This document shows, piece by piece, positions 1-37,133 of a DNA stretch of 37,133 nucleotides; position 1 is the stretch's first letter; every line of letters begins with the position of its first letter. Under the pieces are notes generated by a model. It saw only the letters and a list, made by a program, of their open reading frames with translations, searched no databases and was not told the DNA's origin. The stretch comes from a virus. The translations under genes were made by a program, and so were the position numbers. The stretch covers positions 1-37,133 of the IMG/VR virus record IMGVR_UViG_3300045988_104136, one strand, 5' to 3'.

Positions 1-55
1 ATTGTTCCTCTTCCTAAACACTTTATCCAAACAGCACCATCTATCTTTGGTAAAT
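1..55. repeat. 55-bp exact direct repeat of the two window ends (1..55 = 37079..37133). This is a circular-contig overlap; unique genome length is about 37,078 bp
   Basis: Both ends read attgttcctcttcctaaacactttatccaaacagcaccatctatctttggtaaat. The repeat lies inside a minus-strand ORF that is complete only when the ends are joined. Confidence 0.95.
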
Positions 56-1521: not shown

Positions 1522-1824
1522 CTACTCTGCAAATATTGCATTTGCAAAATTTAATTTTACGACACTTTTCTTATCTACTATAACTTCCCAAGTGTCTGTT
1601 TTTTCTGTTCTAAAAATTATATCTTTATCGAATGGTATATCTTTCTTTGTTTCTGTTCCATTCTTCTTAAATGTCATCTTAGAACCTGTTACAGTTAAGC
1701 TGAATGGGAAATAATGTCCACTTTGTTCTTCTTCTACTGAGCTAAAATCTGTAAATCCTTCTACTTTTTTCAAAGTAGCTTGTACATTCCCGCTTTCATC
1801 TACTGTTGCACCAGGTTCTATCAT
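1522..1824 (-). CDS. Beta-rich 100-codon ORF, probably expressed as a +1-frame C-terminal extension of the major capsid protein rather than independently
   Basis: No Shine-Dalgarno before ATG 1822..1824 (upstream reads AATAAAAAAATATCTGAT). The same frame stays open upstream to 1905, inside the A9 run at the capsid stop. Confidence 0.5.
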   Translation of the reverse strand: MIEPGATVDESGNVQATLKKVEGFTDFSSVEEEQSGHYFPFSLTVTGSKMTFKKNGTETKKDIPFDKDIIFRTEKTDTWEVIVDKKSVVKLNFANAIFAE

Positions 1825-1894
1825 ATCAGATATTTTTTTATTTAGCCAATTTGAATCTTGACTTGGTATTGTTACCTTTTTATTAAGCGCTACA

Positions 1895-3055
1895 CTACTT
1901 TTTTTTTAAGTTAATAACAACGTTTTCTGTTTTCGCACTATCTTCAACTTCAACAGCACCAATAACATCTCTTTTCATATCTTCTGCAGTAACTCTATAT
2001 AATCCTGTAGAATTTTTATTTGCTTTGAATACAGCATTACCACTTGCATTAGTTGTCTTTATTTGCCCATTAAAGTTAACTTTAGCTCCTTCTACATTTG
2101 CTGCTTCACCATCTTTAACATTAATTGTTATATCTACTCTACCTTCAGAATATGAACCAGGTAATATAACAGCAAATGGAAATCTTACTGATTCATCTGG
2201 TTGTAATGAATTTATTGGATTTGGTATTTCCCAACCAAGTCTCATTGTTACTCTTAAGGCAACCATATCATCTTGTGCCAAGTTATATAAAATTTCTCCT
2301 GTTGCTGGATCTTGAATTACAGCTTGATCTAATACTTTAAAAGTAATGTCTTGTCTAATTGCATAAACTGCTTGTGAGAAATCCCCTACAATCATTTGTG
2401 CTAATGATTTATCCCAAGCTCCATTATCAACATATGCTTTATTTAATCCATCAATTTCTGTTCCTTTAATTGGTTGTCCGTTGTTATCTAACATTGTTCT
2501 AAATGCAGATTTTACATTCATACCACCAACTATACTATTTGGATTATATCCACTTTCTTCTACATATGACATAGCTTTATCTATAGAAAGATATAATGTA
2601 TCTAAAGGTGTTACAGATGCTCCTGCATTTAATGTAGATGTTAATATATCAGCTCTAAATCCTGTTGGCTTATCTACCCCTGTAAATACAGCTTGATCAA
2701 ATTTTTTTCCCATAGCCTCTTCTACTCTTGGTCTTACTTCTCCCCAAATATCATAATCGGCATCATCTAATACATTCTCTGGAATAGGTACTATAACAGC
2801 CATTTCTTCAGCTGTAATATACTTTTTATCCCAAGCCATCTTTGTTAATTGTTTTCTAGCATTATCGCTTCCTTGCCAATACACTAGTGGTAGTGCATCT
2901 AACACTCTCATTTTTGTTTTATTAGAAGTCATATTAGGTAGTCTTCTAAACATTTGCATTGCTCTTGATTGTTTTATAGCACCTTGTATAATTTCTTGAG
3001 CTACTTGTTCATCAATCAATGTTTCTGCATTACTTCTTGATATCATTTGTCCCAT
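1895..3055 (-). CDS. Major capsid protein (HK97 fold) with a C-terminal CarboxypepD_reg/prealbumin-like display domain
   Basis: 386 aa downstream of the scaffold gene. Typical MCP core (…AEEMAVIVPIPENVLDDADYDIW…). C-terminus reads GRVDITINVKDGEAANVEGAKVNFNGQIKTTNASGNAVFKANKNSTGLYRVTAE. Confidence 0.9.
   Translation of the reverse strand: MGQMISRSNAETLIDEQVAQEIIQGAIKQSRAMQMFRRLPNMTSNKTKMRVLDALPLVYWQGSDNARKQLTKMAWDKKYITAEEMAVIVPIPENVLDDADYDIWGEVRPRVEEAMGKKFDQAVFTGVDKPTGFRADILTSTLNAGASVTPLDTLYLSIDKAMSYVEESGYNPNSIVGGMNVKSAFRTMLDNNGQPIKGTEIDGLNKAYVDNGAWDKSLAQMIVGDFSQAVYAIRQDITFKVLDQAVIQDPATGEILYNLAQDDMVALRVTMRLGWEIPNPINSLQPDESVRFPFAVILPGSYSEGRVDITINVKDGEAANVEGAKVNFNGQIKTTNASGNAVFKANKNSTGLYRVTAEDMKRDVIGAVEVEDSAKTENVVINLKKK
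1898..1908 (-). other. Candidate recoding site: A9 run (minus strand AAC TTA AAA AAA AAG TAG) at the 3' end of the capsid gene
   Basis: T9 on plus at 1899..1907. The 0-frame stop is at 1895..1897 and the +1-frame upstream stop is at 1906..1908. The two frames therefore overlap open only within the homopolymer. Confidence 0.45.
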
Positions 3056-3799: not shown

Positions 3800-3873
3800 T
3801 GGCGCAAACTAATGGATTCGAACCAATACAAACAGTTTTGGAAACTGTTGTGCTACCATTACACTAAATTTGC
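3800..3873 (-). tRNA. tRNA-Trp (anticodon CCA), 74 nt with encoded CCA end
   Basis: Hand-folded sequence: GCAAATT TA GTGT AATGGTA GCAC A ACAGT TTCCAAA ACTGT TTGT ATTGG TTCGAAT CCATT AGTTTGC G CCA. There is one U-U mismatch in the T stem and one G-U in the acceptor stem. Confidence 0.75.
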
Positions 3874-3901
3874 ATAAAAATAAGAGCTATTTCTAGCTCT
3901 T
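3874..3901 (-). terminator. Intrinsic terminator-like hairpin just upstream (in transcription) of the tRNA
   Basis: Minus RNA reads AAGAGCUA-GAAA-UAGCUCUU followed by AUUUUUAU. Perfect 8-bp stem with a GNRA loop. Confidence 0.6.
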
Positions 3902-34892: not shown

Positions 34893-34925
34893 GAGATATT
34901 TTAATTTTTTTTTAATATTTTTTTA

Positions 34926-36223: not shown

Positions 36224-36245
36224 AGAGGCTTATTTCTAAGCCTCT
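36224..36245 (-). other. Perfect 9-bp hairpin overlapping the major tail gene stop (mRNA stabiliser or partial terminator)
   Basis: Minus RNA reads AGAGGCUUA-GAAA-UAAGCCUCU, followed by UAAAUAAUUU (poor U-tract). Confidence 0.4.
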
Positions 36246-36970
36246 GCTAATGTTATTTCTTTTAATACAGCTTTATTTGATACTGTAACTGCTACATCAT
36301 CTTGCGTTGTATACCCTTCTTTTTCTACAGTTATATTGCTGTATGAATCAGCATCTAAAATTACAACTACAATTCCTGTTGCATCTGTTAAATAAGATAC
36401 ACCCTCTATAGTAATCTTAGCATCTTCAACAGGTAAGCCTGAACTATCTTTAACTACAAAAGTTACTGGATATTCTGCTACTTCTTCTTTTGGTGTAAAT
36501 GTTGCCTTCATTCCATCTGCACTTACTACTGCTTTTCCTACAGTCATAGTACTATTTTTCTTAAATGCCCCTGCATAAGTATAAGCCTCTGTAGCATCTC
36601 CATCAGTATCTGGAACTGTAGAATATGTTCTTAATCTTGCTTTATATCCATCATCAATTGGTTTTGTGAAGTCAACTTGTAATATTTTTACAAGTGCATC
36701 TGCTCCTTTCTTTTCGTCATCTGCTATATCTGCTAATTTGTCATGTACTAGATTTCCTTCGTGTTGGTCGAAATTGTAAGATATTTCTTCACTATATCCT
36801 GTTACATCAGTTGTTTCTCCATCTTCATCAACATAAGTACGTGAATATTCTACAGGATTCTTAGATTTAGAAATTTCTGTAAATTTAGTCATTCTCAAGA
36901 AATTAGCTATAGTAGTTGTAGAAACATCCATGAAAGCAACTTTTCTATTTCTAGTTACTAATTTTTCCAT
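36236..36970 (-). CDS. Major tail protein (phi13-like) with a C-terminal CarboxypepD_reg-like display domain
   Basis: The N-terminus reads MEKLVTRNRKVAFMDVSTTTIANFLRMTKFTEISKSKNPVEYSRTYVDEDG. The C-terminus reads PVTFVVKDSSGLPVEDAKITIEGVSYLTDATGIVVVILDADSYSNITVEKEGY. Confidence 0.85.
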   Translation of the reverse strand: MEKLVTRNRKVAFMDVSTTTIANFLRMTKFTEISKSKNPVEYSRTYVDEDGETTDVTGYSEEISYNFDQHEGNLVHDKLADIADDEKKGADALVKILQVDFTKPIDDGYKARLRTYSTVPDTDGDATEAYTYAGAFKKNSTMTVGKAVVSADGMKATFTPKEEVAEYPVTFVVKDSSGLPVEDAKITIEGVSYLTDATGIVVVILDADSYSNITVEKEGYTTQDDVAVTVSNKAVLKEITLAEA

Positions 36971-37020: not shown

Positions 37021-37133
37021 TTCATAAGCTACTTGTATAGGTATTACATATATTGCTGTTGAATCTGTTGTCTGTAAAATTGTTCCTCTTCCTAAACACT
37101 TTATCCAAACAGCACCATCTATCTTTGGTAAAT
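37009..37133 (-). CDS. C-terminal part of the junction-spanning neck gene (same gene as 1..341)
   Basis: The frame continues from 1..341 through the circular junction and ends …LQTTDSTAIYVIPIQVAYEEDY with a TAA at 37009..37011. Confidence 0.7.
   Translation of the reverse strand, partial: LPKIDGAVWIKCLGRGTILQTTDSTAIYVIPIQVAYEEDY
37079..37133. repeat. Second copy of the 55-bp terminal overlap
   Basis: Identical to 1..55. Confidence 0.95.

What the first reader, a model, noticed from the sequence alone, without database searches (positions are those of the whole stretch)
1522..1908. Probable +1 recoding (ribosomal or transcriptional slippage on an A9 run) that fuses a 125-residue extension onto the major capsid protein
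Seen in the sequence: the capsid gene ends AAC TTA AAA AAA AAG TAG (A9; T9 on plus at 1899..1907). The downstream 100-codon ORF (1522..1824) is in the +1 frame. It has no Shine-Dalgarno, unlike essentially every other gene here. Its frame stays open upstream through 25 further sense codons (SSVALNKKVTIPSQDSNWLNKKISD) back to a TAA at 1906..1908. The 0 and +1 frames therefore overlap open only within the homopolymer. A +1 slip of tRNA-Lys on AAA, or loss of one A by RNA polymerase slippage, gives a ~510-aa product with junction …VVINLKKSSVALNKK…. Established knowledge: longer capsid and tail variants made by programmed frameshifts at the 3' end of the gene are documented, for example Lactobacillus phage A2 (-1) and Listeria phage PSA (+1). 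Runs of 9 or more A/T are known transcriptional slippage sites. Inference: a minor fraction of capsid subunits carries an extra beta-rich surface domain.
Basis: partly seen in the sequence, partly recalled or inferred. Interest (0 to 1): 0.7.

Follow-up and report, generated by a model that had tools for sequence, protein, structure and literature searches.

The report
Frameshift-added extra domain on phage capsid protein
The small gene after this gut phage's capsid gene is almost certainly an add-on capsid surface domain, reached only when the polymerase or ribosome slips on a run of nine A's; the trick is known, but here the shift is +1 while most relatives need -1.

Summary
The capsid gene (1895..3055, minus strand) ends AAC TTA AAA AAA AAG TAG. 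The next ORF (1522..1824) is in the +1 frame and has no Shine-Dalgarno. Its frame is open for 27 start-less codons back into the A9 run (1899..1907).

About 190 related loci show that this ORF is a C-terminal capsid extension, not a free gene:
- Gene callers place its start inconsistently.
- The residues before the ATG are conserved and belong to the predicted beta-sandwich fold (pLDDT 94.7).
- The same domain is fused in frame to capsids of three Pfam families.
- Nearly every relative has a slip site at the capsid stop.

High-GC relatives carry a classical -1 cassette: a G-rich heptamer plus a covarying hairpin. Low-GC relatives carry A9-A12 tracts with no structure, mostly in -1 geometry.

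The window is a minority +1/-2 variant. It is identical in many independent assemblies, so it is not a sequencing error. A second, diverged lineage (L137) has the same AAG TAG junction.

I favour RNA polymerase slippage (A9 to A8 or A11). Ribosomal -2/+1 slippage is the main rival, and a frame-broken, silent extension is not excluded. I class it as a new member of a known kind (T7/T3 10B, phage A2, Listeria PSA).

The parts
1895..3055 (-). Major capsid protein gene (386 aa, HK97-type; 0 frame), stop TAG at 1895..1897
   Evidence: Pfam PF05065 Phage_capsid E=1.5e-29 over aa 13-277; PHROG 10 major head protein E=6.6e-50. AAAGGAGG Shine-Dalgarno before the ATG.
1898..2158 (-). In-frame C-terminal Ig-like domain of the capsid protein (about aa 300-386)
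   Evidence: Weak, sub-threshold Pfam matches to Big_1 (aa 307-358), CarboxypepD_reg (aa 309-382) and FixG_C. Some relatives have a 281-aa capsid type without this domain but with the same downstream extension.
1899..1907 (-). A9 slip tract (TTA AAA AAA AAG in the 0 frame); the only place where the 0 and +1 frames are both open
   Evidence: One of only two homopolymers of 9 or more in the window, and the only one in coding sequence. Low-GC relatives have A9-A12 at the homologous spot, never shorter than 9.
1906..1908 (-). TAA that closes the +1 frame upstream, which sets the 5' limit of any frame change
1825..1905 (-). 27 sense codons in the +1 frame with no ATG/GTG/TTG (KKSSVALNKKVTIPSQDSNWLNKKISD): flexible linker plus the first structured elements of the extension domain
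   Evidence: The residues are conserved across relatives (...[VT][IV]PxQ...LxxKxxS[DE][ML][IV]). AlphaFold2 pLDDT is 97 for residues 11-30. pN/pS is 0.36-0.66 in this frame, while the other two frames contain stops.
1522..1824 (-). The rest of the extension domain (the '100-aa ORF'), including stop TAG at 1522..1524
   Evidence: No Shine-Dalgarno. Family of 572 representative clusters. Beta-sandwich model with pLDDT 94.7. PHROG 31690, function unknown.

Best explanation
ORF 1522..1824 is not a free-standing gene. Together with the 27 codons upstream of it, it encodes a linker plus a roughly 115-residue beta-sandwich domain. This is appended to the C-terminus of a minority of major capsid protein molecules.

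Most expression ends at TAG 1895..1897 and gives the 386-aa capsid protein. On the A9 tract a fraction of events changes frame by a net +1 (equivalently -2). That yields a 510/511-aa protein made of capsid, Ig-like domain, linker and beta-sandwich domain, which co-assembles into the shell and displays the extra domain on the head surface.

I think the shift is made mainly by RNA polymerase slipping on the nine-A tract. This would give A8 mRNA (junction ...NLKK-SSVAL...) or A11 mRNA (junction ...NLKKK-SSVAL...), which are then translated normally.

Shown: the anatomy, the homology, the conserved slip site across relatives, the in-frame fusions elsewhere, and the absence of start signals. Inferred: that this lineage makes the fusion, the level at which slippage occurs, the stoichiometry, and the domain's surface-adhesin or decoration role.

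The confidence given (0.45) is for this full statement, including the transcriptional level. That the fusion is made by slippage at either level I put at about 0.7.
For: 1. The upstream gene is the major capsid protein.
2. There are no initiation signals: no Shine-Dalgarno, and 27 start-less open codons, the longest such lead among 50 minus-strand ORFs. No terminator-like site was found between the two ORFs.
3. In relatives, gene callers start the ORF at three non-homologous places (GTG 'VPEQ', TTG 'LTIP', ATG 'MI'), none with a Shine-Dalgarno. The internal Met is not conserved in distant relatives.
4. The residues before the ATG are conserved and are part of the confident fold.
5. In about 190 related loci the domain ORF follows a capsid gene out of frame, with a slip site at or within two codons of the capsid stop: A AAA AAG or A AAA AAA (A9-A12), G GGG GGT, G GGG GAA or G GGA AAA.
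6. In-frame fusions exist. L056 is 435 aa and L096 is 513 aa, both with PF05065. P0096, P0165, P0105 and P0122 join the domain to capsids of PF05065, PF03864 and PF25209.
7. The +1 geometry is real and stable in this lineage. It recurs with the same AAG TAG yrT AGC junction in L137, which has an unrelated 421-aa capsid, belongs to a different domain subgroup (54% identity to the window's domain) and has an intact linker and domain. It also recurs as A12 in L092/L132.
8. Points favouring the transcriptional level:
- Every low-GC junction type has a tract of at least 9, although a -1 heptamer needs only 6-7.
- A run of 9 A/T is the length at which bacterial RNA polymerase slippage is efficient, matching its 9-10 bp hybrid (Atkins et al. 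2016, PMC5009743).
- No significant structure lies 3' of the tract (z between +1.3 and -1.3), whereas the high-GC relatives have a hairpin (z -3.2, three covarying pairs).
- The sequence just 5' of the tract shows no GGAGG-like Shine-Dalgarno stimulator (read from the sequences).
- Geometries of -1, +1 and in-frame coexist among near-identical junctions. A polymerase that adds or drops A's tolerates this more easily than a directional ribosomal shift.
- Homopolymers of 9 or more are otherwise avoided in this genome.
Against: - There are no protein or RNA data.
- The window lineage is nearly clonal: 5 synonymous SNPs in the capsid gene and none in the extension. Purifying selection on the extension after the switch to +1 therefore cannot be tested.
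- The family norm is -1. The window looks like a -1 junction (L122 type) that lost one base just after AAG, which could simply be a disabling mutation.
- In Thermus dnaX, slippage on 9 T's mostly adds bases. A9 here needs two added A's or one lost, so the fusion fraction may be low.
- Some singleton tract-length variants come from low-coverage contigs (5-11x) and may be assembly noise.
- pN/pS on a 25-codon linker has little statistical power.
Confidence: 0.45

Rival explanations
1. The same fusion protein is made, but by the ribosome. One route is a -2 slip of tRNA-Lys from AAG (with the TAG stop waiting in the A site) back onto AAA, after which AGT is read; this gives ...NLKKK-SSVAL.... The other route is a +1 slip within AAA A, giving ...NLKK-SSVAL....
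For: - A AAA AAG is the most shift-prone bacterial heptamer where a single tRNA-Lys reads both codons (PMC5009743).
- The 0-frame stop lies directly after the tract in both 'AAG TAG' lineages, the window and L137. It also lies directly after the heptamer in the high-GC relatives. A slow stop codon in the A site is a known stimulator of P-site slippage, as in Listeria phage tsh CCC_UGA.
- The high-GC relatives clearly use a ribosomal -1 cassette, so ribosomal recoding is ancestral in the family.
Against: - There is no 3' hairpin, and no Shine-Dalgarno-like sequence just 5' of the tract (sequence).
- +1 re-pairing from AAG onto AGU is poor.
- Programmed -2 shifts are rare and, where known (arterivirus nsp2TF), need a trans-activator.
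- It does not explain why every low-GC tract is at least 9 long.
- The other +1 lineage (A12, L092/L132) has no adjacent stop.
Confidence: 0.22
2. This is a frame-broken variant. A 1-nt loss just after AAG disconnected the extension from the family's -1 shift. A -1 slip now ends after two codons (...KKKVV*), and the extension is silent or made only in traces. It is still intact because the lineage is young or because the decoration is dispensable.
For: - The window is 1 nt shorter than its closest -1 counterpart L122 at exactly this spot.
- The -1 frame closes at GTA GTG TAG.
- The lineage is almost clonal, so decay would not yet be visible.
- -1 geometry dominates among junction types.
Against: - The lineage is widespread, with 46-49 collection blocks holding the exact proteins.
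- The same AAG TAG +1 junction occurs in L137, in another domain subgroup, with the linker and domain intact and several synonymous differences from the window.
- A third +1 lineage (A12) appears in two independent assemblies.
- The frame stays open exactly back into the tract.
Confidence: 0.2
3. The ORF is translated on its own from ATG 1824, by re-initiation or weak initiation. The resulting free 11-kDa protein binds the capsid in trans as a decoration protein.
For: - An ATG exists, and gene callers annotate a free ORF.
- Many family members in the databases are called as proteins of 100-190 aa.
Against: - There is no Shine-Dalgarno, in a genome where most genes have a strong one.
- The ATG lies 70 nt after the capsid stop, which is far for coupling.
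- The Met is not conserved in distant relatives, which have Leu or a gap there.
- A 100-aa product would lack about 17 conserved, confidently folded N-terminal residues.
- Called starts in relatives are inconsistent and also lack a Shine-Dalgarno.
- The domain has no recognisable capsid-binding part of its own and elsewhere occurs covalently fused.
Confidence: 0.07
4. The A9 length is a sequencing or assembly artefact, and the real genome has A10 (-1 geometry) or A11 (in frame).
For: Homopolymers are error-prone, and singleton length variants occur among low-coverage relatives.
Against: - The junction is identical in six distinct contigs from different samples and assemblers.
- The exact 386-aa capsid protein, which requires this frame, is present in 46 collection blocks.
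- The window differs from the A10 relatives by the sequence after the tract as well, not only by its length.
Confidence: 0.02

Closest known systems
Lactobacillus phage A2 major head protein gp5A/gp5B (-1 ribosomal frameshift near the end of the capsid gene; Garcia et al. 2004, cited in PMC10885494 and PMC5009743)
   Same: - It infects a Firmicute host.
- It has an HK97-type capsid gene whose 3' end is extended in another frame, giving a longer second capsid component.
- The added part is an Ig-like domain.
   Different: - A2 shifts -1 at a short heptamer with a downstream structure.
- The window needs a net +1/-2 shift on an unstructured A9 tract.
- The added domain belongs to a different, uncharacterised family.
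- A2 has protein-level proof; this case has none.
T7/T3/K1F gene 10A/10B (-1 frameshift giving a minor capsid protein)
   Same: - Two capsid forms come from one gene.
- Only a subset of subunits carries the extension.
- The T3 extension is Ig-like.
   Different: - It is a podovirus of Gram-negative hosts.
- The shift is ribosomal -1 at a G GUU UUC-type site (from my own knowledge).
- The T7 extension is short and is not a folded domain family like this one.
Listeria phage PSA Cps (+1 frameshift) versus A118/A500 Cps (-1)
   Same: - Close relatives reach a capsid extension by opposite shift directions.
- This is the 'indifference to +1 or -1, or in-frame' pattern noted in PMC5009743, and it is what is seen here between the window and its relatives.
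   Different: PSA shifts +1 at a rare CCC proline codon next to a pseudoknot. Here the site is a lysine homopolymer with no detected structure.
dnaX: E. coli ribosomal -1 shift at A AAA AAG plus hairpin, versus Thermus thermophilus RNA polymerase slippage on a run of nine
   Same: - Homologous genes obtain two products either from a structured ribosomal cassette or from an unstructured 9-nt homopolymer.
- This parallels the high-GC (heptamer plus hairpin) and low-GC (A9-A12) branches of this phage family.
   Different: - dnaX is a cellular replication gene, and its shifted product is the truncated one.
- In Thermus the long form is the unshifted product.
- For the phage family, the level at which slippage occurs has not been tested.
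Ig-like domains on phage virion proteins (Fraser et al. 2006; T4 Hoc)
   Same: - A small beta-sandwich module is found on capsid, sheath and decoration proteins, in frame or by frameshift.
- Foldseek gives only Ig/FN3-type matches.
   Different: - There is no Pfam family for it.
- The PDB matches are weak (E about 0.02, TM 0.3-0.5), so it is not a member of Big_1/Big_2/I-set by sequence.
- No binding function has been tested.

Membership tests
Phage major capsid protein C-terminal extension by programmed recoding (T7/T3 10B, A2 gp5B, PSA/A118 Cps) | The upstream gene is the major capsid protein. | tested here: met
   PF05065 E=1.5e-29; PHROG 10 E=6.6e-50.
Phage major capsid protein C-terminal extension by programmed recoding (T7/T3 10B, A2 gp5B, PSA/A118 Cps) | The downstream coding region is in another frame, is open back into the end of the capsid gene, and lacks its own initiation signals. 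| tested here: met
   +1 frame; 8-nt overlap inside A9; 27 start-less codons; no Shine-Dalgarno.
Phage major capsid protein C-terminal extension by programmed recoding (T7/T3 10B, A2 gp5B, PSA/A118 Cps) | A shift-prone sequence lies in the overlap and is conserved in relatives. | tested here: met
   The window has A9. Low-GC relatives have A9-A12, and about 100 high-GC relatives have G-rich heptamers, always at the capsid stop.
Phage major capsid protein C-terminal extension by programmed recoding (T7/T3 10B, A2 gp5B, PSA/A118 Cps) | Both short and long capsid forms are present in virions. | not testable with these tools
   This needs SDS-PAGE and mass spectrometry of virions. Predicted masses are 42.6 and 56.4/56.5 kDa.
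Phage major capsid protein C-terminal extension by programmed recoding (T7/T3 10B, A2 gp5B, PSA/A118 Cps) | The extension is a folded surface (Ig-like) domain. | tested here: inconclusive
   The beta-sandwich model is confident (pLDDT 94.7). PDB matches to Ig/FN3 domains are only weak (E about 0.02). Strong matches are only to uncharacterised phage proteins. No Pfam hit.
Canonical -1 programmed ribosomal frameshift cassette (X XXY YYZ plus 3' stimulator) | The heptamer is in the 0 frame and the -1 frame leads into the extension. | tested here: not met
   A AAA AAG is present in phase, but the -1 frame reads GTA GTG TAG and stops, and the extension is in +1. This feature is met in most relatives.
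Canonical -1 programmed ribosomal frameshift cassette (X XXY YYZ plus 3' stimulator) | A stimulatory hairpin or pseudoknot lies 5-9 nt downstream. | tested here: not met
   Window: MFE -14 kcal/mol, z -1.3, 21 of 200 shuffles fold as well. High-GC relatives: a 13-bp hairpin 5 nt after the heptamer, z -3.2, three pairs with compensatory changes.
Programmed transcriptional slippage (Thermus dnaX, IS elements, Shigella mxiE type) | A homopolymer of about 9 or more A/T lies at the point where the frames must be joined. | tested here: met
   A9 at 1899..1907; relatives have A9-A12, never shorter. The length threshold is taken from PMC5009743.
Programmed transcriptional slippage (Thermus dnaX, IS elements, Shigella mxiE type) | The mRNA population is heterogeneous in tract length relative to the DNA. 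| not testable with these tools
   This needs RNA sequencing or amplicon sequencing with a DNA control.
+1 programmed frameshift of the prfB / PSA type | The P-site tRNA can re-pair in +1, and the A-site codon is slow (a stop or a rare codon). | tested here: inconclusive
   AAA to AAA (+1) re-pairing is possible inside the run, but the next codon there is an ordinary AAG. At AAG TAG the A site holds a stop, but +1 re-pairing onto AGU is poor, and only a -2 slip re-pairs perfectly (read from the sequence).

The most novel reading that the evidence does not exclude
In the low-GC branch of this phage family, the ancestral ribosomal -1 cassette (heptamer plus hairpin) has been replaced by a bare A9-A12 tract on which the host RNA polymerase slips. 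Because slippage both adds and removes A's, the tract can sit in -1, +1 or even in-frame register. Its length, which mutates easily, then acts as a heritable dial for the fraction of capsid subunits that carry the surface domain. The window would be a natural 'low setting' of that dial. This would be the first capsid-decoration stoichiometry set by transcriptional slippage in a phage, and a viral parallel to dnaX in E. coli versus Thermus.
Probability: 0.35. Interest if true: 0.7.

Novelty: new member of a known kind. Interest (0 to 1): 0.5.

Why it matters
Annotation: this ORF and hundreds of homologues in gut-phage and metagenome databases are annotated as free hypothetical proteins with arbitrary start codons. 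They should be joined to the capsid gene.

Biology:
- The phage head would display a second, sub-stoichiometric beta-sandwich module. The same module also occurs on tail sheaths and in multi-repeat surface proteins. That suggests a role in adhesion, for example to mucus, glycans or cell surfaces, for abundant phages of gut Clostridia.

Recoding:
- The family offers a natural comparison of three solutions to one problem: heptamer plus hairpin, a bare homopolymer in -1 or +1 register, and in-frame fusion.
- Tract-length polymorphism between near-identical genomes makes it a ready-made system for asking whether polymerase or ribosome slippage sets capsid composition.

Tried and rejected
- DNA similarity to deposited phages found only two distant capsid hits, so protein-level and metagenome searches were needed.
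- A within-lineage selection test failed for lack of variation: 5 synonymous SNPs in the capsid gene and none in the extension.
- An IMG/VR scan for AAAAAAAAGTAGNNTAGC gave 38 matches, none followed by the domain. No further 'AAG TAG' lineages were found there.
- A word-indexed protein search with a junction-spanning query from the in-frame variant L124 found no protein covering both sides (maximum 53% coverage). The frequency of in-frame A11 variants therefore could not be estimated. They rest on three contigs (L123, L124, L128): L128 is low-coverage, and coverage for the other two is not given.
- A promoter-like match at 1849..1820 is at chance level (16 found against 16.3 expected), so an internal promoter is rejected.
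- ATA (1866..1864), preceded by AAAGG, was considered as a non-canonical start because relatives have GTG at the aligned codon (the aligned residue appears as M in the called proteins). I rejected it because ATA is not a recognised efficient start codon and the relatives' starts have no Shine-Dalgarno either.
- The phage A2 paper (PMC355979) is not held in the library. A2 details are taken from the review and from citation lists.
- The paper describing Flavonifractor phage Chenonceau does not mention a frameshift.
Full report
**1. Observation**

On the minus strand the 386-aa ORF 1895..3055 ends ...GTT ATT AAC TTA AAA AAA AAG TAG. The A9 is the T9 at 1899..1907 on the plus strand. It is the major capsid protein: PF05065 E=1.5e-29 and PHROG 10 E=6.6e-50. 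It also has a weakly scoring in-frame Ig-like domain at about aa 300-386.

The next ORF (1522..1824, 100 aa) is in the +1 frame. That frame is open for 27 further codons (KKSSVALNKKVTIPSQDSNWLNKKISD) up to TAA 1906..1908. The two frames are therefore both open only over 8 nt inside the A run.

Supporting measurements:
- The ATG has no Shine-Dalgarno, whereas most genes here have matches of 4-10 nt.
- The start-less lead is the longest among 50 minus-strand ORFs (median 4 codons). The composition-based chance is about 0.06 for no stop and about 0.016 for no stop and no start.
- Homopolymers of 9 or more are depleted in this 28% GC genome: 2 observed against 12.7 expected. The other one (34905..34913) is intergenic.
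- The exact capsid and ORF proteins occur in 46-49 blocks of the public collection. Six distinct contigs show the identical A9 junction.

**2. What the ORF is**

A search with the 127-aa +1-frame translation found homologues of 93-129 aa. Their called N-termini fall at three non-homologous positions (alignment). At the DNA level these 'starts' are GTG, TTG or the internal ATG, and none has a Shine-Dalgarno. The residues upstream of the window's ATG (...VTIPSQ...WLNKKISD) are conserved.

An AlphaFold2 model built on that alignment has pLDDT 94.7. Residues 11-30 score 97, so the fold begins well before the ATG. Foldseek finds only weak Ig/FN3 matches in the PDB (E about 0.02) and strong matches only to uncharacterised phage proteins. 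There is no Pfam family, and the PHROG match (31690) has unknown function.

A full HMMER scan finds 572 representative clusters. Besides short 'ORFs', the domain sits at the C-terminus of proteins of 300-500 aa. Four of nine tested are capsid proteins, from three Pfam families: PF05065, PF03864 and PF25209. In fetched loci it is fused in frame to capsids (L056 at 435 aa, L096 at 513 aa), embedded in a tail sheath (L021), and placed at the end of a 234-aa protein (L098/L099). Up to eight matched stretches occur in giant proteins such as P0035.

It is therefore a promiscuous module of virion surface proteins that is normally attached covalently.

**3. The junction across relatives**

I examined about 190 loci from IMG/VR, GTDB genomes and metagenomes. 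In nearly all of them the domain ORF follows a capsid-sized ORF, is out of frame with it, and overlaps it at a shift-prone sequence at or within two codons of the capsid stop. The capsid identity was confirmed by Pfam only for a sample of these loci.

*High-GC relatives.* These include Flavonifractor phage Chenonceau (ON453904). They have G GGG GGT TAA, G GGG GAA TAA/TGA or G GGA AAA TAA, always in -1 geometry. A 13-bp hairpin follows 5 nt downstream: -30.7 kcal/mol, z -3.2, with three pairs showing compensatory changes. This is a textbook -1 ribosomal frameshift cassette.

*Low-GC relatives.* These have A9-A12 tracts and never anything shorter. They show no significant downstream structure (z between +1.3 and -1.3), and the sequence just 5' of the tract has no Shine-Dalgarno-like element. 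Most junction types are in -1 geometry, for example GTA AAA AAA AAG ACA GCT TAA and TTA AAA AAA AAA TCA GTT TAG.

Tract length differs between otherwise near-identical junctions:
- AACTT-A(n)-TCAGTTTAGCAAC has n=10 in many contigs (-1). With n=11 it gives a single 514-aa capsid+domain ORF in L124; L128, with a near-identical 3' flank, is also n=11 and in frame.
- L129 is a related +1 variant: n=9 with a slightly different 3' flank (TCAGCTTAGCACC).
- AACTT-A(n)-TCAAGTTAGCACC has n=10, and n=9 in L006.
- ATTCTT-A12-TCAAGTTAGCACC is +1 in two independent assemblies (L092, L132).
- AGAGT-A(n)-TCAAAGTAAATC has n=11 (in frame, L123) and n=12 (+1, L135).

Several of these singleton variants come from low-coverage contigs and should be treated with caution.

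**4. Where the window sits**

The window has the same capsid type and the same TTA AAA AAA AAG as L122 (-1 geometry: AAG ACG GTG TAA...). It is one base shorter immediately after AAG (AAG TAG TGT AGC...). This creates the TAG stop and moves the extension from -1 to +1/-2. A -1 slip in the window ends after two codons.

The same arrangement is found in L137: AAG TAG yrT AGC, with the same 34-nt distance to the VTIPSQ codons. L137 has an unrelated 421-aa scaffold-capsid protein and an A11 tract.

By domain identity the window belongs with L122/L005/L002/L092 (84-90%). L137 belongs with L018-L020 (77-85%; 54% to the window). The +1 'AAG TAG' junction therefore either arose twice or was exchanged by recombination. 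In both lineages the linker and domain are intact: SSVALNKK versus SSIAENKN, with several synonymous differences, pN/pS 0.52 in this frame and stops in the other two frames.

The window lineage itself is almost clonal, so selection after the switch cannot be measured directly.

**5. Mechanism**

The shown facts establish that the ORF is the distal part of a capsid extension and that entry into it must occur within 1898..1905. How entry occurs is inference. I favour RNA polymerase slippage, for five reasons:
- All low-GC tracts are at least 9 long, although a -1 heptamer needs only 6-7.
- Nine A/T is the length at which bacterial RNA polymerase slips efficiently, matching its 9-10 bp hybrid. 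Thermus dnaX exploits exactly this, where E. coli uses A AAA AAG plus a hairpin (PMC5009743).
- The low-GC branch has lost the hairpin that its high-GC relatives keep.
- Registers of -1, +1 and in-frame coexist among close relatives.
- The genome otherwise avoids such runs.

For the window, A8 transcripts give ...NLKK-SSVAL... (510 aa, 56.4 kDa). A11 transcripts give ...NLKKK-SSVAL... (511 aa, 56.5 kDa). Slippage in Thermus mostly adds bases, so the window would probably make less of the long form than its A10 relatives do.

The main rival is a ribosomal -2 slip of tRNA-Lys from AAG onto AAA while TAG occupies the A site, or a +1 slip within the run. A stop adjacent to the shift site recurs in this family and is a known stimulator. 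However, the A12 +1 lineage has no adjacent stop, and programmed -2 shifts are rare.

A third reading cannot be excluded: the 1-nt loss simply disabled a dispensable decoration in a young lineage. Independent initiation at the ATG and sequencing error are both unlikely.

My estimates: about 0.7 that the fusion is made at all, split into 0.45 for transcriptional slippage and 0.22 for ribosomal slippage; 0.2 for the frame-broken reading; and under 0.1 for the remaining two together.

**6. Comparison with known systems**

Capsid extensions made by programmed frameshifting are established for several phages:
- T7/T3/K1F gene 10B (-1).
- Lactobacillus phage A2 gp5B (-1).
- Listeria A118/A500 (-1) and PSA (+1).

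Ig-like domains have been noted to be added by -1, by +1 or in frame, apparently indifferently (PMC5009743; PMC13370021). The present case fits that kind in anatomy and in conservation. The defining protein-level evidence could not be tested.

It differs in three ways:
- The domain family is uncharacterised.
- The site is a bare homopolymer rather than a heptamer with a stimulator.
- The window has the minority +1/-2 register.

I file it as a new member of a known kind. The reading that the A tract is a transcriptional-slippage dial for capsid decoration is given separately as the novel case.

**7. Verdict**

Interest is moderate. The phenomenon is known, but the family-wide contrast between a structured -1 cassette and A9-A12 tracts in three registers is a useful natural experiment. 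In addition, hundreds of database ORFs of this family are mis-annotated as free genes.

Noticed in passing
window 1..55 and 37079..37133: There is an exact 55-nt terminal direct repeat. The window is therefore a complete circular contig of about 37,078 unique bp, and the structural gene order continues across the ends (an ORF spans the junction).
   Followed up: partly
window 3800..3873 (-): A tRNA-Trp (anticodon CCA) is encoded inside the head module, between the 74-aa ORF and the scaffold-like gene. A terminator-like hairpin lies just upstream at 3901..3882.
   Followed up: no
window 34905..34913: This is the only other homopolymer of 9 or more (T9 on the plus strand, A9 on the minus strand). 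It is intergenic, just after a stem-loop and in an A/T-rich promoter-like region. Overall, runs of 9 or more are about six-fold rarer than a first-order Markov model predicts.
   Followed up: partly
L009 about 2478..2540 (Flavonifractor phage Chenonceau ON453904) and about 100 high-GC loci: An unannotated canonical -1 frameshift cassette lies at the end of the major head gene: G GGG GGT TAA plus a 13-bp covarying hairpin. The downstream 'hypothetical protein' is annotated with a TTG start that lies inside the conserved linker. Many relatives use G GGG GAA, which is not a standard X XXY YYZ heptamer.
   Followed up: partly
L124 834..2378; L128; L123 1167..2381: A11 variants in which the capsid and the extension form one continuous ORF (514 aa in L124, 404 aa in L123). 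They are otherwise near-identical to A10 or A12 out-of-frame relatives. Either the tract length is truly polymorphic or these are homopolymer assembly errors.
   Followed up: partly
L021 2171..4153; P0035, P0085, P0106, P0144: The same domain is inserted near the N-terminus of a 660-aa tail sheath protein. In proteins of 1,100-2,700 aa it gives 4-8 matched stretches, which suggests a general surface-display or adhesin module shared by phages and possibly by their hosts.
   Followed up: no
window 36236..36970 (-): This 244-aa ORF corresponds by size and position to the 244/245-aa gene in relatives that has a weak CarboxypepD_reg (Ig-like) Pfam hit. It lies where a major tail protein would be expected. 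The virion may thus carry Ig-like modules on both head and tail.
   Followed up: no
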